UHGV virus genome: UHGV-0112973
Source: a virus
Direction: 5' to 3' (one strand)
DNA length: 64,000 nt
The position numbers were made by a program, and so were the translations under genes. Under the pieces are notes generated by a model that was given only the letters and a program-made list of their open reading frames with translations, searched no databases and was not told the origin of the DNA. Of the stretch, positions 1 through 21,262 are shown in pieces (positions within the stretch are counted from its first letter, which is position 1; every line of letters starts with the position of its first letter).

Positions 1-399
1 GACGTCATCGTCTGCGCGGAAATGGACGAACAGTGGGGCTATGTCGGGGCTAAATCGCGCCAGCGCTGGCTGTTTTACGCGTATGACAGGCTCCGGAAGA
101 CGGTTGTTGCGCACGTATTCGGTGAACGCACTATGGCGACGCTGGGGCGTCTTATGAGCCTGCTGTCACCCTTTGACGTGGTGATATGGATGACGGATGG
201 CTGGCCGCTGTATGAATCCCGCCTGAAGGGAAAGCTGCACGTAATCAGCAAGCGATATACGCAGCGAATTGAGCGGCATAACCTGAATCTGAGGCAGCAC
301 CTGGCACGGCTGGGACGGAAGTCGCTGTCGTTCTCAAAATCGGTGGAGCTGCATGACAAAGTCATCGGGCATTATCTGAACATAAAACACTATCAATAA
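1..399 (+). CDS. insB: IS1 transposase InsB, C-terminal part (5' end outside window)
   Basis: Translation ...[43 protein letters not shown]...HYLNIKHYQ matches remembered IS1 InsB. Confidence 0.85.
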
Positions 400-414
400 G
401 TTGGAGTCATTACC
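1..414 (+). mobile_element. IS1 insertion sequence, right-hand portion (window begins inside the element)
   Basis: InsB reading frame runs from base 1; element ends with the IS1 terminal repeat ...caataagttggagtcattacc at 414. Confidence 0.85.
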
Positions 415-417
415 GAC

Positions 418-771
418 GTGGCAATAAAGAATAAGAAGTCACAAGTTAAAAAAACAAAAAGATCAGTTTCCGGCGGAGCCGGAACGACCAGACTCAAAAA
501 ATTGACTTCATGGATCGCTGAGGCAAAAGCAAAGGCTGACAATCTGCGGTTATCCAAAAAACGCGCTCAAAAACATGAGTTCAAGCAGAAAGTAGAGGCG
601 GCAGCGCGGAAATATGCTTACCTGAAGAACAAGCGTTCTCCTGATATTGACGGGGTATCAAACTTCGATAATTTGCCGCATTGCATGACGGTAAACGAAG
701 CTCTTAATGCGGTTTTAGCCAAAAATAAAGATAACGAACAATGGGGTATACCGGCAGGATTCAGAGGGTAA
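418..771 (+). CDS. hypothetical basic protein abutting the IS1 end (GTG start; may be the 3' remnant of a gene interrupted by IS1)
   Basis: ORF track 117 aa; starts 4 nt after IS1 terminus; no recognisable domain. Confidence 0.3.
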   Translation: MAIKNKKSQVKKTKRSVSGGAGTTRLKKLTSWIAEAKAKADNLRLSKKRAQKHEFKQKVEAAARKYAYLKNKRSPDIDGVSNFDNLPHCMTVNEALNAVLAKNKDNEQWGIPAGFRG

Positions 772-14727: not shown

Positions 14728-15012
14728 CTAACTTACCTGAACCAGGCCGTCTCCGGACGCTACGGTAGATCCGCATGAAACAGGGTCACCAACGCATACG
14801 ATCCCTTTACTATTGACGGTAAACCATGCCCTGGTTGATATAGCTTGCCCACCGTGCGTACTGTTTCCATCGGTATGCTGTGCATATTGCTTACCATCAA
14901 CTAACACTTCGACTCCGTTGACTTTAAGTAGTGGTTCACTCTCTACAGGAGGCCTGGATGGGAATCCTCCGTGCCCCGAACAAATGCTGTCTTTTGTTGC
15001 AATACTTGCCAC
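14728..15012 (-). CDS. small Gly/Cys-rich protein, possibly PAAR-like (P1 upfC position)
   Basis: 94 aa; ...GIVCVGDPVSCGSTVASGDGLVQVS resembles PAAR repeats. Confidence 0.4.
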   Translation of the reverse strand: MASIATKDSICSGHGGFPSRPPVESEPLLKVNGVEVLVDGKQYAQHTDGNSTHGGQAISTRAWFTVNSKGIVCVGDPVSCGSTVASGDGLVQVS

Positions 15013-15092
15013 GGCATCACCAATAATTTGCTCTGGTTTTCTTTATTTTAACTTAGGTTACTTGTGGTCTACATGGCGTCAACTATTGCATA

Positions 15093-15109
15093 ATTGCCCT
15101 AATAAATAT
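15093..15109 (+). promoter_or_regulatory. C1-operator-like site in divergent promoter region
   Basis: ATTGCCCTAATAAATAT vs remembered consensus ATTGCTCTAATAAATTT. Confidence 0.4.
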
Positions 15110-15180
15110 TGTTTTTTATGTCTTGTTTTCGGTACCATTCAGCCATCGCCCTTCAATGGGTATTTGTTTGGAGTCGTCAG

Positions 15181-15465
15181 ATGCAGATGGAGCTAATAAG
15201 TCGCAAAGAGTTCGATAGCCGTGTAACCAGCGGTGAACTCGACAACTTGCAGGCTATCAAGGTGAAAGAAGGCTTTTGCCTCATTGGGAATCAGAGCGGA
15301 ACAAATCGCGTTTTTATGCTTCGCCGTACGGATTTGAAGCCATTTGTCTGGAAGAACGAAATTGGTCCCAGCTCATACGCTCAAACGAGGGGGTGCCACA
15401 ACCTGGCATTTTTCTACAAAGACGAGCTTTCTGTGGTTGATATTCAAGGGTTACAACATGTTTAA
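15181..15465 (+). CDS. hypothetical protein upstream of hrdC (uhr position)
   Basis: ORF ends with TAA overlapping hrdC start; start codon uncertain. Confidence 0.45.
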
Positions 15466-16363
15466 GCACTGGAAAAACATTACTATTTATAAACTTTCTC
15501 GTGAGGCGGATCTGACCGACTTAGAAGATAAAAAGAAAATGATCCTTTTCACGCCATGCGGTAGTCAGGATATGGCCAAGTTCGGTTTTGTATCTCCATT
15601 TGGTGATAATTCCGAAGTTATCGCTATGCATGGAAATGGTTTTATCCTTGTTGAAGCAAAGCGCGAAACAAAAATTCTTCCCCCGCCGGTTATCCAGCGA
15701 GCTATTCAAGAAAAAATTGAAAAACTTGAGCAAGAACAAGCGCGTAAACTGAAGAAAACAGAGAAGGACTCCCTGAAAGACGAAGTTCTGCATTCTCTTC
15801 TGCCACGGGCTTTTTCAAAGTTTTCTGTTATCCAGGCGATCTACGACGGTTCAACTAAACGTATCTATATCAATGCCAGCGCGCGGCAGGCAGAGGATAT
15901 GCTCGCGCTTATGCGTAAATCTCTGGGTTCTCTTCCTGTTGTGCCCCTAAGTGTTGAAAATCAAATTGAGTTAACGCTGACCGACTGGGTGCGTGATGGT
16001 AGTGCTCCGCAGGGATTTCAAATGGGGGATGCGGCAGAACTTAAGGCAGTGCTTGAGGATGGCGGTATTGCCCGAGTGAAAAAGCAGGACTTGGGAAGTG
16101 ATGAAATATCCACACACCTGGAAGCTGGCAAGCTCGTCACTAAGTTGGCACTCGACTGGCAGAACCGCATTAAATTTACACTGGACCATAACTTCAGCCT
16201 TACCAGCGTCAAATTTGCGGATGAATTGCTTGAGCAGAACGCTGATATTGATAGTGAAGATGTTGCGCAGCGACTGGACGCAGATTTCTTCCTGTTGACC
16301 AGTGAAATTTCGTGCCTGGTTGATGCTCTGGTAAATGCCCTTGGCGGAGAGGCTAAGCAGTGA
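15458..16363 (+). CDS. hrdC: RdgC-like recombination-associated protein
   Basis: 302 aa from [13 protein letters not shown]..., RdgC-like N-terminus and length; followed by dmt as in P1. Confidence 0.75.
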
Positions 16364-19300
16364 AAGAGCTGTGCTACGGATCTGTTTGCAGTGGAATTGA
16401 AGCCGCGAGTATTGCCTGGGAACCGTTGGGTATGCGTCCGGCGTGGTTTGCTGAAATCGAGCCTTTTCCATCTGCCGTTCTTGCGCTCCGCTGGCCCCAT
16501 GTCGCCAACCTTGGCGACATGACAAAACTTGCCAAAAAAGTCTTGGCTGGGGAAATCGAATCCCCTGACGTGCTCGTCGGGGGAACACCATGTTTTACCG
16601 CGGGGCATATGGTTCTTTGTAAAAATGGTTATAAACCAATAGAAGATGTTTGCCCTGGCGATTACGTAGTCAGTCATCTCGGGCGGTTACAACAAGTAAA
16701 AAGAGTTGGTTCAAAAATAGCTAATACGGGGTTACTTAATGCCGTTGGGCAGCCTTTAGGTATAAGAACAACCAATGACCATCCCTTCCTGGCTGTTCGG
16801 TGGAAAGCCCAAAACACCCGGAAAAATGGCACATATTTTAAGAGAGAGTTGTTGTCTGAACCGGAATGGCGAGCAGCATGTGATATGCCGGGATATCAAT
16901 GGTGCGCTCTAACTAATTTCAATATTGCATCTCCAGATATTTGTTCTCGGTTCTTGTCTGAAGAACAGGCTATGTATCTTGCGGGCGCTTATGTAGGCGA
17001 TGGATATATTAGGAGATGGAGAGGTAAATCTAAGAAGGCGGTTGTTTTTGGCATAAATTGCCAGAAATTGAGAAAGTTTCATTGCCACATACCAGAAAAC
17101 ATGTTTTCCGTGGCAAGCGAAATCCGAGGGAGCATCAAAGTAACCTTGAATGATACGTGTTATGCCAATTGGCTTAATGAACATTTTGGCGAGTTAAGCC
17201 ATGCTAAACGTATCCCTGCATGGGTGATGTCGCATCCATTGCGTCATGTGTTTTTACAAGGCTATCTTGATACTGATGGGACACCAAGTGGTAAAGCGGG
17301 ATTTAGAATTAATAGTGTTAGTCCTGCGCTTGCTTGGGGCGTTGCGGGGTTGTCACAGACTTGTGGTTATGTTTCTTCGGTCAGCTTTATTGAAGTTGAG
17401 CCCAAAAAAGTGATCGAGGATCGCGTGGTAAATCAACGGGATTATTATCAGGTAACAATCTGCCCGCAGAAATTGTCACGTAAATCAAGATTGGCTCATG
17501 GAATGCTTTTACGAACAGTCAAAGAGTTTAAATCGGTAGGCCTAGATACTGTATACAACATAGAAGTCGAAGGTGATCATTCCTATATCCTCAATGGTGC
17601 GGTGGTCCATAACTGTCAGGCATTCAGTATCGCGGGATTACGTGGTGGGCTTGATGATGAGCGTGGCGCGCTAACTTTAAAGTATGTGGAGCTTGCAAAT
17701 GCAATTGACGACAAACGGGCTGAGTCATTTCTCAAACCAGCCGTTATCGTCTGGGAAAATGTCCCAGGAGTCTTGTCATTGGCAGATAACGCCTTCGGAT
17801 GTTTCCTTGCCGGATTGGCTGGAGAAGATGTGCCATTTGAACCAGGTGATCGACCTGAATCAGGAAAAAGCAACGCGTTCTGGCGGTGGGATGGCAAAAC
17901 CGGTTGCCATGTTCCAAAGTGGCCGCAGTGTGGTTGTATTTATGGACCGCAGCGAAAGGTGGCCTGGAGAATCCTTGATGCCCAATACTTCGGAGTGGCA
18001 CAACGACGCCGACGCGTGTTTGTTGTCGCAAGTGCTCGAACAGACCTCGATCCCGCAACGGTACTTTTTGAGTTCGAAGGCGTGCGCCGGAATATTGCGC
18101 CGAGCCGAAAAAAGAAGGAAATCGCTTCCGCCATTATTGCAAATGGCGCTGCAATCAGTGGCGAAAGCCTAAATCCATGCCTACACGCTGGCATGTCTCC
18201 CGGTATGAAATCGACGAAAGCCGTAAACGGTTTCAGGATGGCGGCATTTGGGGAATATATTGACGATGAAACCGCATCGACAGTAAAGGCAAGAGATTTT
18301 AAAGATGCCACTGACCTTGCCGTTTTTAGCAGCACAGGAGCAGGTTTTTGGTCAGAAGGGCATGGTACATTGCGGGCACGTGAGCAAGAAAGCCATGAGC
18401 ATCTTGTTACATTGGCTTTTCCTGAGCGTATGAGCGGTACACAACATGCTGCAACTAAGAATACTTCACCATCTCTAATGGCTAAAAATCCAACAGCTGT
18501 TTGCTATGAAGTAAGAAACGCAGAAGTAGCTGTCCGCCGTCTTACCCCTGTCGAATGTGAAAGGCTGCAAGGTTTTCCTGATGGGCATACGTTGATCCCG
18601 ACGGAAAAGCGTAAAAAAGTTAATTCAGATGAACTGGCATATCTCCGCAATCACTATCCAGATTTAAGCGAAGAAGAGGCCGCGATGCTTGCAGCTGACG
18701 GACCGCGTTACAAAGCGATCGGCAATAGTATGGCAATACCAGTAATGCGCTGGATTGGCGATCGGATTACTAAGGCCGTATGTCGGCAGAAAGAAGGAAG
18801 TGAAACAAAAGAGCGAAAAGTTAAACCAGCGACAGAATTCGAACGGTCCATATTCAAATGGGCTGGTGGAAAATTTGGTGTTCTGGAACAAATCTTTCGC
18901 TATTTGCCAGAAGGGAAGCGCCTGATTGAACCTTTCGTCGGTGGTGGAGCTGTCTTCATGAATGCCGGATACCAGGAAAATCTGCTAAATGATGTGAATG
19001 CTGACCTGATTAACTTTTACAAGACTCTGCAACGCGAGGCGCATTCACTTATCACTCTGGCACATCGTTTCTTCCAGGACTACAACACACAGGAAGGATA
19101 CCTGGCAGTACGGAATGCGTTTAACAAACAAGTCTATGATGATTTACATCGCGCAGCGGCGTTTTTGTTCCTGAACCGACATTGTTTTAACGGATTGACG
19201 CGTTACAACCAGGCCGGTGAGTTCAATGTCGGTTATGGGAAGTATAAAACTCCGTATTTCCCATTACAGGAGATGGAAGCCTTCCTCGGTGCGGAAGGGC

Positions 19301-19647
19301 GGTCTGAGTTTGTATGCGGTGATTTTGCAGCGGTGATTGAAGCTGCCGGAGAAGGAGATGTCATCTTTTGCGATCCGCCGTATGAACCGCTTCCAAATAC
19401 AGAGGGATTCACGAACTATTCCGGTCATGACTTTAAGTTTGAAGAGCAAAAACGCCTGGTGTCTCTGTTGACGGATGCTCATCGTCGAGGTGCAAAGGTT
19501 CTCATTACTAACAGTGGCGCGCCAAACATCAGAGAGCTTTATCATGACAGTGGCTTCAGAGTGGAACCTCTTTTTGCCAGACGTTCTGTGTCTTGTAAGG
19601 GGGACACTCGAGGTGTAGCTCATGACGTTTTAGGTATATTGCTCTAA
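16360..19647 (+). CDS. dmt: bifunctional DNA methyltransferase Dmt (N-terminal C5-cytosine MTase, C-terminal Dam-like N6-adenine MTase), interrupted in frame by an intein
   Basis: GTG start overlapping hrdC stop; C5 motifs (GGTP/CQAFS, ENVPG, QRRRRVF) and Dam motifs (FKWAGGK, DPPY); 1095 aa = 754 + 341. Confidence 0.9.
16591..17613 (+). other. intein (341 aa) with LAGLIDADG homing-endonuclease domain, inserted at the catalytic Cys of the PCQ motif
   Basis: Starts Cys (CFTAGHMV...), block [18 protein letters not shown] and [10 protein letters not shown] motifs, ends ...NGAVVHN followed by Cys; removal restores GGTPCQAFS. Confidence 0.85.
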
Positions 19648-19654
19648 TAAATTT
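19638..19654 (+). promoter_or_regulatory. C1 operator overlapping the dmt stop codon
   Basis: ATTGCTCTAATAAATTT exact to remembered consensus; part of palindrome CTAATAAATTTATTAG. Confidence 0.55.
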
Positions 19655-19828
19655 ATTAGTGTAATATCGCCTCAATGAATCGTGATTTATAGAGCGATTT
19701 AGCTGTTAGCCGCGACAGGCGCGGCGGTAAGCATGGCTGGGCCTAGTCCTCCCAGACAAACCACCGAGTTGCCAGGTTGACCATGCGCCTAAGTGGCAAC
19801 GCCGAAGTGCGTTACGAGCTTCCAGTTT

Positions 19829-19855
19829 GCCCATCTTCGGGTGGGCGTTTTTTTC
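19829..19855 (+). terminator. rho-independent terminator downstream of dmt
   Basis: gcccatc-UUCG-ggtgggc hairpin followed by T7 run. Confidence 0.6.
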
Positions 19856-20035
19856 AGGGTTTTCGTCATGGTTAGCGACTTTGCGGCGGTTTAGAAACTG
19901 ACCATTAAAGTAAATGCAAACGATGATCTGATGATGGTAGCGGCCTAAGAAGCCAGATGCCACGGGGTATGAGTCGTCCCCCGTCAAAAAATCGACCGCA
20001 GAGTGTCCCCGTCTGTGTATTAGGGAACGGGGAGG

Positions 20036-20118
20036 CACAACAGGTAAGGGCGCTGGTGTGATTAACCAGATGAACGAGAAGGGGCCATCTGTTGGTCAGC
20101 GTCCTTTCCTGTTGCGTT
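20036..20118 (+). repeat. long-stem hairpin element (unit 0) upstream of tRNA-Asn
   Basis: 5' arm CACAACAGGTAAGGGCGCTGG pairs with 3' arm CAGCGTCCTTTCCTGTTGCG. Confidence 0.45.
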
Positions 20119-20319
20119 TTCTTTTCAGCGTAACAGCGGTGCTTAACAGCACTTTGGGTACAGTTCCACGAATTTACGGGTATATCCCGTCATGCTGAAG
20201 GCGCTAATCACGCTGGAAGCCAGGGTTGTGCATCCCCTGTTACCGAATTGCAGCCAGGGCGCGGTGCGCCGAAAAGCATACGGAGGTGGAAGCCCTCGCC
20301 GGAGACGTACCCGGCAAGT

Positions 20320-20394
20320 GATGGTGTAGCTCAGCGGTAGAGCAGTTGGCTGTTAACCAACTGGTCGGTGGTTCGAATCCATCCACCATCGCCA
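20320..20394 (+). tRNA. tRNA-Asn (anticodon GTT)
   Basis: Cloverleaf by hand: acceptor GATGGTG/CACCATC, D-arm GCTC..GAGC, anticodon loop CTGTTAA, T-arm GGTGG-TTCGAAT-CCATC, encoded GCCA end. Confidence 0.9.
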
Positions 20395-20396
20395 AT

Positions 20397-20472
20397 GCCG
20401 GTTTAGCTCAGTTGGTAGAGCGCCTGCCTTGTAAGCAGGATGTCAGCGGTTCGAGTCCGTTAACCGGCACCA
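20397..20472 (+). tRNA. tRNA-Thr (anticodon TGT)
   Basis: Acceptor GCCGGTT/AACCGGC, anticodon loop CTTGTAA, T-loop TTCGAGT, encoded CCA. Confidence 0.9.
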
Positions 20473-20473
20473 A

Positions 20474-21262
20474 CACAACAGGTAAGGGTATTTTGCGACG
20501 TCGGAGATCGCCGTGCTTGGCAGAGGGTTCGAATCCCTACGAAGTACCCTTACCGTTGTGATGAATGCGCAGGCTGATGCGCGAAAGACATTGCAGCTAT
20601 TGCGGAAAAGAGCTGTTCGGCGGGGCAATTAAACGCCCGTGAGAGTCTGAAATAACCGCAAGCCGGAGATCAGCACCGGTCATCACAACACAACAGGTAA
20701 GGGCATTCTCCCTTATGGGGCTTGGCTTAAATGCATCGAGTGCTCTTACCGTTGTGATGAAGTGCAGCTCTTTGAAGCAACCAGAAGATAAGCATCTGGC
20801 TTCACAACATAAACCGCAGGAACGACCAATAAACGGTAGTCCGTATGGAGAACACCCCGTTGAGGAAGAGGCCTGGCCGGAACCGTAACCGGCACTATAA
20901 CGTTGAGAACACTGGCGTAACGGGGTCATATCCCAATCTACGAATAAATGTTGCGTTGCAGCGTGACAACCAGTGTTCTCAACATTGTGGTGAATGCACA
21001 GGCTGATGTGCCGCAACTACAGTAGTGCGCGCTTTGCGGGGCTTGCTACAACCCTGTGTCGGAGTTCAGCACCGACCATCACAGTTTGATTCTCTGGCAT
21101 GAGCATAACGCTGAAATAAGTCCAGTCTGGTGCGGTCTGATCACCCGCCGTTAGCTCCACGAAACGGAGCACGTAACAGGTAAGAGCATTCTCCTGTAAC
21201 GGGTTCATATCCCAATCTACAGGTCCACCAAGAATGCTCTTTCCGTTGCGGTGAATGCGGCT
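20474..21262 (+). repeat. four related long-stem hairpin units (candidate structured RNAs or processing elements) between tRNA-Thr and upl
   Basis: Units at about 20474-20565, 20688-20775, 20901-20995, 21172-21262; shared arms ACAACAGGTAAG(G/A)G / CTTACCGTTGTG, 14-bp perfect stem GTTGAGAACACTGG/CCAGTGTTCTCAAC, T-loop-like GGGTTCGAATCCC. Confidence 0.5.

What the first reader, a model, noticed from the sequence alone, without database searches (positions are those of the whole stretch)
16591..17613. In-frame LAGLIDADG intein at the catalytic PCQ motif of the dmt cytosine methyltransferase
The dmt ORF is 1095 aa, and I recall P1 Dmt as 754 aa; the 341-aa difference is one block: N-extein ...VLVGGTP, then [16 protein letters not shown]... 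with a TxxH block (TTNDHPF), two LAGLIDADG motifs ([20 protein letters not shown]) and a terminal ...NGAVVHN, then C-extein [12 protein letters not shown]. Excision recreates GGTPCQAFS, the motif-IV catalytic site of C5-MTases, so the +1 Cys of the extein is the enzyme's catalytic cysteine. Inteins are rare in Enterobacteriaceae and I do not recall one in a P1-family methyltransferase.
Basis: partly seen in the sequence, partly recalled or inferred. Interest (0 to 1): 0.85.

Follow-up and report, generated by a model that had tools for sequence, protein, structure and literature searches.

The report
Mobile intein in P1-family dmt methyltransferase
The DNA methyltransferase gene of this P1-like phage-plasmid is interrupted, exactly at the enzyme's catalytic cysteine, by a textbook self-splicing intein that carries a homing endonuclease; the element is common in E. 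coli P1-like plasmids and seems to have moved between them, but no database or searchable paper labels it.

Summary
The dmt ORF (16360-19647, 1095 aa) equals reference P1 Dmt (754 aa) plus one clean 341-aa block (16591-17613) between Pro77 and the motif-IV catalytic Cys.

The block has every hallmark of a class-1 intein: Cys1, TxxH, Asp-His in block F, terminal His-Asn and a +1 Cys. It also has two LAGLIDADG motifs with both catalytic Asp intact. A confident AlphaFold model matches PI-SceI and other endonuclease-bearing inteins. In-silico splicing restores a contiguous C5-methylase domain.

It is not rare. The same intein (at least 98.9% identical) is in 152 of 5426 complete E. coli genomes, about 31% of P1-type dmt genes. 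It is also in 133 plasmids, in phage RCS47 and in a lab P1 derivative. All are labelled only "Dam family methyltransferase".

It sits in at least three different dmt variable-region backgrounds. Donor-type flanking tracts vary in length, and near-isogenic empty alleles exist. That is a homing signature. However, the endonuclease domain is under relaxed constraint (pN/pS 0.67, against 0.10 for the splicing domain).

Relatives occupy the same Pro|Cys site of C5-methylases across bacteria. A 2025 actinophage survey already lists C-5 methylases as intein hosts.

Verdict: a real, apparently unreported new member of a known kind. Splicing and cleavage remain untested.

The parts
15093..15138 (+). 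C1-repressor operator Odmt (15093-15109, ATTGCCCTAATAAATAT, one mismatch to P1) overlapping promoter Pdmt (-35 TTGTTT at 15109-15114; -10 TACCAT at 15133-15138). It drives the uhr-hrdC-dmt operon.
   Evidence: Mapped from the annotated P1 reference features by local BLAST; the surrounding 106 nt are 96% identical. Function is inferred from the P1 annotation, not tested.
15181..15465 (+). uhr, the first gene of the operon
   Evidence: Syntenic with P1 uhr and 97.5% identical at DNA level
15458..16363 (+). hrdC / rdgC-family gene. Its stop codon overlaps the dmt GTG start by 4 nt.
16360..19647 (+). dmt precursor ORF (1095 aa, 121.6 kDa): N-extein, intein, then C-extein
   Evidence: The exact protein is public (ANJ37970.1 and others), named only 'Dam family ... 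methyltransferase'.
16360..16590 (+). N-extein (77 aa). It holds C5-MTase motif I and the first half of motif IV (...VLVGGTP). In all 24 unique occupied alleles the last codon is CCA; in all 50 unique empty alleles it is CCT.
16591..17613 (+). Intein, 341 aa, 38.3 kDa, class 1. GC is 43.0% against 49.1% in the exteins.
16591..16617 (+). Intein block A (CFTAGHMVL); Cys1 is the first nucleophile
   Evidence: C1, F2 and G5 are invariant in the family alignment A2
16771..16782 (+). Intein block B, T61-N-D-H64 (the TxxH motif)
   Evidence: T61 and H64 are invariant in A2
16978..17004 (+). LAGLIDADG motif 1 (LAGAYVGDG); catalytic Asp137
   Evidence: D137 and G138 are invariant in A2; helix 124-137 in the model
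17254..17280 (+). LAGLIDADG motif 2 (LQGYLDTDG); catalytic Asp229
   Evidence: D229 is conserved in at least 90% of sequences and G230 is invariant in A2; Pfam LAGLIDADG_3 covers residues 221-282
17551..17613 (+). Intein blocks F and G ([21 protein letters not shown]), with Asp329-His330 and the terminal His340-Asn341
   Evidence: TIGR01443 scores 30.8 bits over residues 321-342. There is 41-residue sequence similarity to the Spl DnaX mini-intein C-terminus.
17614..17616 (+). +1 Cys. It is the intein's third nucleophile and also the catalytic Cys of C5-MTase motif IV (P-C-Q).
17614..19647 (+). C-extein (677 aa plus stop). It holds the rest of the C5-MTase (motifs IV-X and a P1-type variable region) followed by the Dam (D12-class N6-adenine) methyltransferase domain (aa 834-1066 of the precursor, about nt 18859-19557).
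   Evidence: Pfam PF00145 and PF02086; NCBIfam dam TIGR00571 at 248.8 bits

Best explanation
Window 16591-17613 encodes a genuine class-1 intein with a nested double-motif LAGLIDADG homing endonuclease. It is inserted in frame in the C5-cytosine methyltransferase half of the bifunctional P1-family Dmt, between Pro77 and the motif-IV catalytic Cys.

Inferred mechanism:
- dmt is transcribed from the C1-repressed Pdmt promoter when the prophage is derepressed, and is translated as a 121.6-kDa precursor.
- Cys1 makes the N-S acyl shift, the +1 Cys attacks in trans-thioesterification, and Asn341 (helped by His340) cyclises.
- This releases the 38.3-kDa intein and ligates the exteins into the 83.4-kDa Dmt, with GGTP-CQAFS restored.
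- Only the spliced form can be an active C5-MTase, because motif I lies in the N-extein and the catalytic Cys begins the C-extein. The C-terminal Dam domain probably works either way.
- The free intein, or the precursor, is predicted to cleave intein-less dmt alleles around ...GGGGGWACRCCT|TGTCAGGCATTC... when two P1-like genomes share a cell. Repair from the occupied allele then copies in the intein plus a short stretch of flank.

What is shown: the anatomy, conservation, fold, clean insertion, restoration of the host domain, population frequency, and mosaic flanks.

What is inferred: splicing, DNA cleavage, the direction of gene conversion, and the timing of expression.
For: Clean insertion:
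- One 341-aa insertion against P1 Dmt.
- About 337 complete E. coli genomes have the uninterrupted site and 152 have the intein.

Intein residues:
- C1, T61, H64, D329 and N341 are invariant across 11 family members at 29-52% identity. H340 and the +1 Cys are present in the window allele.
- TIGR01443 scores above its cutoff. Hint_2 and LAGLIDADG_3 score at or above the Pfam gathering thresholds.

Fold:
- The AF2 model has pLDDT 92.9 and pTM 0.89.
- The top 16 Foldseek PDB hits are all endonuclease-bearing inteins: PI-SceI at 8e-17, TliVMA, PhoVMA, PI-PfuI and PI-PkoII. Free LAGLIDADG enzymes such as I-SceI come next.

Host domain and alternatives:
- The spliced sequence gives a contiguous PF00145 stretch, residues 8-134, across the junction.
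- No intron model matches.

Mobility:
- The intein differs by 1.1% or less among 24 unique alleles (pi 0.35-0.7%). It lies in dmt genes of at least three variable-region length classes (3288, 3042 and 3447 nt), each of which also exists empty (2265, 2019 and 2424 nt). One host gene's Dam part is only 69% identical.
- Divergence between occupied and empty alleles peaks at the junction (dxy 0.083) and falls to 0.003 by +376..450.
- Donor-type flank tracts end at different distances in different alleles.
- Near-isogenic pairs exist. L001(+) and L051(-) have 3 differences in 3534 nt downstream, and the intein-linked SNPs lie only at -104, -48, -22, -1 and +21.

Other:
- There are no stops or frameshifts in 15 unique DNA alleles, and overall pN/pS is 0.31.
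- Lower GC (43% against 49%) fits a foreign origin.
- Relatives at 48-52% identity sit at the identical GGTP|C...HN|CQ site in Dmt-like C5-MTases of other bacteria.
Against: - No experiment shows splicing or cleavage.
- Within the E. coli population the endonuclease domain is weakly constrained (pN/pS 0.67; 12 nonsynonymous against 5 synonymous changes). The splicing domain is at 0.10 (3 against 9; Fisher p=0.025). Many copies may therefore carry a decaying endonuclease.
- Upstream hrdC diversity among intein-plus elements is low (pi 0.004-0.02, against 0.04-0.067 in empties). The intein may have entered only a limited number of lineages.
- P1-like genomes are notoriously mosaic, so ordinary homologous recombination could produce part of the flank pattern. 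The direction of conversion (gain or precise loss) cannot be read from sequence.
- About 69% of sites remain empty.
- Pfam Intein_splicing (PF14890) scores below its gathering threshold (21.8 against 35.8), and Hint_2 only just reaches its own.
Confidence: 0.85

Rival explanations
1. It is a real, splicing-competent intein, but its endonuclease is no longer active in most or all copies. Its present distribution then reflects a few old invasions, followed by ordinary homologous recombination among mosaic P1-like plasmids and hitch-hiking with successful plasmid lineages.
For: The endonuclease domain has pN/pS 0.67, against 0.10 for the splicing domain. Intein-plus elements share low-diversity upstream hrdC sequence. 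Most sites are still empty. P1-like dmt is modular, with many variable-region classes.
Against: Both catalytic Asp and Lys206 are intact in every allele, and no stop or frameshift occurs in 15 unique alleles. The intein is at least 98.9% identical across hosts whose Dam regions differ by 10-31%. Conversion-tract ends lie within about 20-350 nt of the 1-kb heterology on both sides in several independent backgrounds. That is unusual without a break at the site.
Confidence: 0.3
2. It is a non-splicing HINT-type domain insertion (like a bacterial intein-like domain, or a dead intein). It permanently disrupts the C5-MTase half and leaves dmt as a Dam-only enzyme.
For: Splicing is untested. C5 methylation by P1 Dmt is described only as 'perhaps' in the P1 annotation. 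With the insert present, the NCBIfam dcm model falls below its cutoff.
Against: All three nucleophiles and the assisting residues (C1, T61/H64, D329/H330, H340/N341, C+1) are present. The splicing domain is under strong purifying selection (pN/pS 0.10). The C5-MTase motifs of the exteins are all intact, and the exteins stay about 98% identical to those of empty alleles. BIL domains lack a nested endonuclease and do not sit in catalytic motifs (general knowledge).
Confidence: 0.04
3. It is a DNA- or RNA-level element (a group I or II intron with an endonuclease ORF, or an insertion sequence) that only happens to be in frame, or it is an assembly artefact.
For: LAGLIDADG endonucleases are also encoded in group I introns. 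Insertion elements of unclear nature are reported in actinophage methylases (PMC9957025, PMC11855218).
Against: No Rfam intron family matches at E of 0.1 or less. The insert is one continuous in-frame ORF bounded by intein blocks A and G. The same 1023 nt occurs in 133 plasmids, 152 complete E. coli genomes and several phage records, which rules out an artefact.
Confidence: 0.01

Closest known systems
PI-SceI (the yeast VMA1 intein) and archaeal endonuclease-bearing inteins (TliVMA, PhoVMA, PI-PfuI, PI-PkoII)
   Same: The architecture is the same: a split HINT splicing domain with a double-motif LAGLIDADG endonuclease nested inside, a Cys1 ... His-Asn / Cys+1 chemistry, and insertion at a catalytic motif of the host enzyme. 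These are the best structural matches (Foldseek E 8e-17 to 5e-9).
   Different: Sequence identity is only 11-16%. This intein is smaller (341 aa against 360-540), and no extra DNA-recognition region was examined. The host is a phage-plasmid DNA methyltransferase rather than an ATPase, polymerase or reductase.
Allelic inteins at motif IV (Pro|Cys) of other bacterial C5-cytosine methyltransferases, e.g. the Metarhizobium album NS-104 prophage-like contig and the Mannheimia haemolytica 'Hint domain-containing protein'
   Same: The insertion point is identical (GGTP|CF..AG...VHN|CQxFS). Intein identity is 48-52%, and the N-exteins are Dmt-like. More distant relatives (27-34% identity) sit at the same Pro|Cys in Clostridia, Actinobacteria, Proteobacteria and cyanobacteria.
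   Different: Those hosts are stand-alone C5-MTases, for example 850 aa with no Dam fusion in L031. There is a gap between the 98-100% enterobacterial cluster and the next relative at 52%, so the immediate donor has not been sampled.
Actinobacteriophage DNA methylase inteins (mycobacteriophage DNMT-1/2 in N6_N4 methylases; 'C-5 (IPR001525)' methylases in the 2025 actinophage survey)
   Same: These are phage-borne methylases invaded by LAGLIDADG-type inteins, with patchy distributions that were read as horizontal transfer (PMC5050341; PMC9957025; bioRxiv 10.1101/2025.01.02.630785).
   Different: The hosts are a different phage group (actinobacteria). Most described cases are in N6/N4 enzymes, and the searched text of those papers does not mention Escherichia or Enterobacter. 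I could not check the insertion site of their C-5 cases.
Reference P1 Dmt (NC_005856, 754 aa)
   Same: It is the same gene in the same uhr-hrdC-dmt operon behind Odmt/Pdmt. The exteins are about 98% identical.
   Different: It has no intein. The junction codon is CCT rather than CCA. It carries a private Gly-to-Trp change in motif IV (VLVWGTPCQ).

Membership tests
Intein (class 1, HINT splicing domain) | An in-frame insertion with precise boundaries that is absent from orthologues | tested here: met
   There is a single 341-column gap against P1 Dmt. About 337 complete E. coli genomes have an uninterrupted site and 152 have an occupied one.
Intein (class 1, HINT splicing domain) | An N-terminal nucleophile (Cys/Ser) in block A and TxxH in block B | tested here: met
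   C1, T61 and H64 are invariant in the 11-sequence family alignment
Intein (class 1, HINT splicing domain) | C-terminal blocks F/G with penultimate His and terminal Asn, followed by a +1 Cys/Ser/Thr | tested here: met
   ...[17 protein letters not shown]|C. TIGR01443 scores 30.8 bits against a cutoff of 15.6. D329 and N341 are invariant.
Intein (class 1, HINT splicing domain) | HINT fold | tested here: met
   The AF2 model has pLDDT 92.9. Foldseek matches PI-SceI and the VMA inteins, and also mini-inteins such as Prp8 and Ssp DnaB. Pfam Hint_2 is right at threshold (28.5 against 28.4), and PF14890 is below threshold.
Intein (class 1, HINT splicing domain) | Excision restores a functional host-protein sequence | tested here: met
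   The in-silico spliced protein gives a contiguous PF00145 stretch (residues 8-134) across GGTP-CQAFS, at 124 bits against 103.5 bits unspliced
Intein (class 1, HINT splicing domain) | Protein splicing actually occurs | not testable with these tools
   This needs expression with Western blot or mass spectrometry. The expected products are 121.6 kDa giving 83.4 + 38.3 kDa.
LAGLIDADG homing endonuclease (double-motif, intein-nested) | Two LAGLIDADG motifs that keep the catalytic acidic residue, and a family profile match | tested here: met
   LAGAYVGD137G and LQGYLDTD229G. D137 is invariant and D229 is conserved in at least 90% of sequences. PF14528 scores 34.5 bits against a cutoff of 22.5. 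There are structural matches to I-SceI, I-AniI and I-OnuI.
LAGLIDADG homing endonuclease (double-motif, intein-nested) | A population signature of homing: presence/absence polymorphism, with flank co-conversion tracts in different backgrounds | tested here: met
   The dxy peak at the junction, the variable tract ends and the near-isogenic occupied/empty pairs all fit. Caveats: the direction cannot be determined, and the endonuclease domain has pN/pS 0.67.
LAGLIDADG homing endonuclease (double-motif, intein-nested) | Site-specific cleavage of the intein-less allele | not testable with these tools
   This needs purified protein and an empty-site substrate
C5-cytosine DNA methyltransferase (PF00145), as the host protein | Conserved motifs I, IV (PCQ), VI (ENV), VIII (QRR), IX and X (GNS) | tested here: met
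   GGTP|[32 protein letters not shown] and GNSMAIPV can all be read in the ORF. PF00145 scores 124 bits after in-silico splicing.
Bacterial intein-like (BIL) domain | A HINT domain without a nested endonuclease, usually lacking the +1 nucleophile, and found in variable non-catalytic regions | tested here: not met
   A nested LAGLIDADG domain is present, the +1 Cys is present, and the insertion is in a catalytic motif. The only BIL structure hit is marginal (E=0.88).
Group I / group II intron | A structured catalytic RNA detectable by covariance model, with the insert not needing to be in frame | tested here: not met
   No Rfam intron match at E of 0.1 or less in 15000-21000. The insert is a continuous in-frame ORF.

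The most novel reading that the evidence does not exclude
The intein may have been co-opted as a conditional post-translational switch. The Dam half of Dmt would be active from the precursor, while the C5-cytosine (anti-restriction) activity would appear only once splicing occurs. The pair of Cys1 and the catalytic +1 Cys could make that step sensitive to redox state or stress during lytic growth. On this reading, the strong purifying selection on the splicing domain (pN/pS 0.10), against near-neutral drift of the endonuclease (0.67), would reflect a host-beneficial regulatory role rather than the mere need to remove a parasite.
Probability: 0.08. Interest if true: 0.8.

Novelty: new member of a known kind. 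Interest (0 to 1): 0.5.

Why it matters
P1 is a classical model phage, and P1-like phage-plasmids are now followed closely as carriers of antibiotic-resistance genes.

- **Occurrence.** About a third of the P1-type dmt genes sampled in complete E. coli genomes, and about 3% of all complete E. coli genomes, carry an intact intein. That contradicts the working assumption that E. coli and its elements are free of inteins.
- **Annotation.** The insert pushes the dcm model below its cutoff, which explains why these 1095-aa proteins are named as Dam-only enzymes.
- **A tractable system.** This would be a natural intein / homing-endonuclease system in the most tractable bacterial genetics host. Occupied and empty alleles both exist in laboratory P1 strains (OP279344 and NC_005856). 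Intein splicing, homing frequency, co-conversion tract length and fitness cost could therefore be measured directly in phage crosses.
- **A recurrent insertion site.** Across bacteria, the motif-IV Pro|Cys of C5-methyltransferases is used repeatedly by related inteins.

It does not reveal a new mechanism.

Tried and rejected
- **Literature.** Ten full-text searches combined intein or homing endonuclease with P1, P1-like, RCS47, dmt, Punavirus, phage-plasmid or cytosine methyltransferase. One search failed on a term that was too short. None found a description of this intein. The library lacks many subscription papers, including the original RCS47 paper, so absence is not proof.
- **Sequence search against PDB chains.** This gave only weak hits: the Spl DnaX mini-intein C-terminus at E=0.0014 and PI-PkoII at E=0.016. 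The structure-based search was needed.
- **PHROGs.** The only match was to an intein-containing ribonucleotide reductase family, which adds nothing.
- **Intron hypothesis.** Rejected: no Rfam match.
- **Truncated 76-nt intein matches in E. fergusonii plasmids.** I considered these as possible decay remnants. One (H57, NZ_CP070875) ends about 55 nt upstream of an annotated IS1 transposase gene, so I read it as an IS1 disruption. The other (H58, NZ_AP028818) lies at the very start of its record and was not examined.
- **OP279344 as a mislabelled wild P1-like plasmid.** Rejected. It is 99.5-99.96% identical to reference P1 except for a replaced par-repA-dmt segment.
- **First diversity script.** It timed out and was rerun with faster settings.
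Full report
**1. The observation**

The ORF at 16360..19647 (+ strand, GTG start overlapping the hrdC stop) encodes 1095 aa. Reading the DNA shows CCA (Pro77) at 16588-16590 and TGT (Cys) at 16591-16593. It then shows ...CAT AAC (His-Asn) ending at 17613 and TGT CAG (Cys-Gln) from 17614.

Megablast against phage records shows that reference P1 dmt covers exactly 69% of the query, that is 2265 of 3288 nt. The protein alignment with P1 Dmt (754 aa) has one gap of exactly 341 columns between P77 and C78, and about 98% identity elsewhere.

**2. What the insert is**

Profile matches:
- Pfam finds a Hint_2 match at the N-terminus and a LAGLIDADG_3 match (34.5 bits, cutoff 22.5).
- Pfam also finds a sub-threshold Intein_splicing match that spans the two ends.
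- NCBIfam intein_Cterm (TIGR01443) scores 30.8 bits against a cutoff of 15.6.

A search of 5.8 billion proteins found relatives at 48-52% and at 29-35% identity. I aligned eleven of these inteins. The following are invariant: Cys1, Thr61 and His64 (block B), Asp137-Gly138 (LAGLIDADG 1), Lys206, Gly230, Asp329 (block F) and Asn341. Asp229 is conserved in at least 90% of the sequences.

An AlphaFold2 model built on that alignment is confident (pLDDT 92.9, pTM 0.89). Its best 16 PDB matches are all endonuclease-bearing inteins: PI-SceI at E=8e-17, TliVMA, PhoVMA, PI-PfuI and PI-PkoII. Free LAGLIDADG enzymes and mini-inteins follow.

Removing the 341 residues in silico turns the fragmented PF00145 match (103.5 bits, 3 stretches) into 124 bits. 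One contiguous stretch then covers residues 8-134 across GGTP-CQAFS. No intron covariance model matches the region.

The insert is therefore a canonical class-1 intein with a nested double-motif LAGLIDADG endonuclease.

**3. Context**

The window is a P1-like phage-plasmid. It is 97% identical to P1 over 38 kb. Over dmt it is identical to E. coli S51 plasmid NZ_CP015997.

dmt is the last gene of the uhr-hrdC-dmt operon. The P1 C1-repressor operator Odmt (one mismatch) and the promoter Pdmt are conserved upstream, at 15093-15138. By analogy with P1, the precursor should be made when the prophage is derepressed. That is also when several phage genomes can meet and recombine. This timing is an inference.

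**4. How common it is, and how it is labelled**

- The 1023-nt intein occurs at 95% identity or better in 133 PLSDB plasmids: Escherichia 118 (including E. albertii and E. fergusonii), Salmonella 14, Shigella 1.
- It occurs in 152 of 5426 complete E. coli genomes.
- It occurs in phages RCS47 and Ro157c2YLVW, and in OP279344.
- A junction-spanning query finds 337 genomes with an uninterrupted site. About 31% of P1-type dmt genes are therefore occupied.
- OP279344 is a true P1 c1-100 derivative, 99.5-99.96% identical to the reference, except for a diverged par-repA-dmt segment that carries the intein.
- The exact 1095-aa protein is public (ANJ37970.1 and others, on 190 contigs), but it is always named 'Dam family site-specific DNA-(adenine-N6)-methyltransferase'. 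With the intein present, the NCBIfam dcm model scores 96.5, just under its cutoff of 100.65. That explains the Dam-only name.

**5. Evidence for mobility**

I obtained 74 unique dmt alleles with flanks from IMG/VR and GenBank: 24 occupied and 50 empty.

- *Several backgrounds.* Occupied genes come in lengths of 3288, 3042 and 3447 nt. These correspond to empty genes of 2265, 2019 and 2424 nt. The same intein therefore sits in at least three variable-region backgrounds that also exist empty. It also occurs in a dmt whose Dam part is only 69% identical (L019/L076).
- *Low intein diversity.* Intein diversity is 0.35-0.7%, while the last 77 nt of the N-extein among occupied alleles differ by 5.2%.
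- *A peak at the junction.* Divergence between occupied and empty alleles is highest at the junction (0.083) and decays to 0.003 by +376..450.
- *A fixed junction difference.* All occupied alleles have CCA at the junction codon and all empty alleles have CCT.
- *Variable tract ends.* Donor-type tracts end between -21 and -16 (L063, L065), near -200 (L091, L104), before +21 (L010), between +66 and +106 (L062), or between +117 and +126 (L001).
- *Near-isogenic pairs.* L001 (RCS47, occupied) and L051 (empty) differ at 3 positions in 3534 nt downstream. Near the junction they differ only at -104, -48, -22, -1 and +21. For L106 against L100, the differences concentrate between about -246 and +345.

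This is the pattern expected from break-induced gene conversion (homing) with short co-conversion tracts. It does not prove the direction of transfer, and it does not exclude ordinary recombination in these mosaic genomes.

**6. Selection**

Fifteen unique intein DNA alleles contain no stops or frameshifts, and no change falls on a catalytic residue. Overall pN/pS is 0.31.

Split by domain, the splicing domain has pN/pS 0.10 (3 nonsynonymous against 9 synonymous changes). The endonuclease domain has 0.67 (12 against 5). Fisher's exact test gives p=0.025.

Splicing competence is therefore strongly maintained. The endonuclease is under relaxed constraint within this population, as the homing-cycle model predicts after invasion. 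This lowers my confidence that every copy still cuts DNA.

**7. Wider family**

All relatives at 48-52% identity are inserted at the identical GGTP|C...HN|CQ site of Dmt-like C5-MTases. One example is an 850-aa stand-alone methylase on a Metarhizobium album prophage-like contig.

A scan of one genome per species found relatives at 27-34% identity at the Pro|Cys of motif IV in Clostridia, Actinobacteria, Proteobacteria and cyanobacteria. The junctions read FGSP|CQ, GGSP|CQ, ASPE|CT and SPD|CK/T. The archaeal hits instead lie in the known ribonucleotide-reductase site.

The C5-MTase catalytic Cys is thus a recurrent intein insertion site. The immediate donor of the enterobacterial intein is unsampled, because nothing was found between 98% and 52% identity.

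**8. Comparison with the literature**

- Mycobacteriophage inteins are described in N6_N4 methylases (PMC5050341).
- An actinophage methylase family with an intein and other insertion elements is described in PMC9957025.
- A 2025 preprint lists DNA methylase 'C-5 (IPR001525)' among the actinophage proteins invaded by inteins, and does not mention Escherichia.
- Reviews and P1-like plasmid papers found in the searches do not mention an intein in dmt.

I conclude that the kind (an intein in a phage C5-methylase) is known. This member (P1-family Dmt of enterobacteria) appears unreported in the searchable literature.

**9. Verdict**

- It is a new member of a known kind, not a new mechanism.
- Interest is moderate (0.5). 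It would surprise users of P1 and E. coli, it is an annotation blind spot, and it offers a tractable natural homing system. But its anatomy is textbook and the sequences are already public.
- Splicing, cleavage and any regulatory role remain to be tested.

Noticed in passing
L003:1501-3765 (NC_005856 dmt), codon 74; compare window 16579-16581: The reference P1 genome has a private Gly-to-Trp substitution inside motif IV of the C5-MTase (VLVWGTPCQ; TGG against GGG). No other of the 74 unique dmt alleles examined has it. It lies 12 nt from the intein insertion point, so it could affect both C5-methylase activity and recognition by the endonuclease.
   Followed up: partly
L194 (OP279344.1 40000-88362) against L195 (NC_005856.1 45000-94800): The 'P1 del res del mod' laboratory isolate is 99.5-99.96% identical to reference P1 over most of its length. 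Its par region does not align, and the repA-to-dmt segment is only about 97% identical and carries the intein. It looks like a recombinant between P1 and another P1-like element.
   Followed up: partly
dmt variable region, window about 18090-18480; loci L033-L112: The C5-MTase variable (target-recognition) region of P1-like dmt comes in at least six length classes. Spliced gene lengths are 2265, 2019, 2589, 2424, 2233 and 2101 nt. This suggests modular swapping of methylation specificity among P1-like elements, independent of the intein.
   Followed up: partly
P0012 (Mannheimia haemolytica, 439 aa, seen on 578 contigs): The protein carrying the allelic intein (48% identity) ends about 20 residues after the intein (...VVHN|CQSDKGGTVKASGGGFEWRE*). 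The C-extein methylase appears truncated while the intein ORF keeps all its catalytic residues. This could be a stranded or domesticated intein.
   Followed up: no
L150:3001-4020 and L172:3001-4029: Related inteins in a Ruminococcus and a Flexilinea genome are flanked by ...LWENV|C...HN|CGAFSS. This resembles a site after an ENV (motif VI-like) element rather than motif IV, and may be a second intein insertion site in methyltransferase-like proteins.
   Followed up: no
L193:3501-3576 (NZ_CP070875.1), and NZ_AP028818.1 positions 1-76: Two E. fergusonii plasmids keep only the first 76 nt of the intein. In NZ_CP070875 the match ends about 55 nt upstream of an annotated IS1 transposase gene. In NZ_AP028818 the match is at the very start of the record and was not inspected.
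   Followed up: partly
window 20566-20738: There are about 173 extra bases relative to reference P1, just downstream of the tRNA-Asn and tRNA-Thr genes (20320-20469). They are flanked by a 23-nt stretch that aligns twice to P1.
   Followed up: no
window 19843-19948 (+): There is a weak sub-threshold Rfam match to permuted tmRNA (24.1 bits against a gathering score of 47, E=0.06) in the dmt-tRNA intergenic region, near where P1 annotates a dicF-like region. It is probably chance.
   Followed up: no
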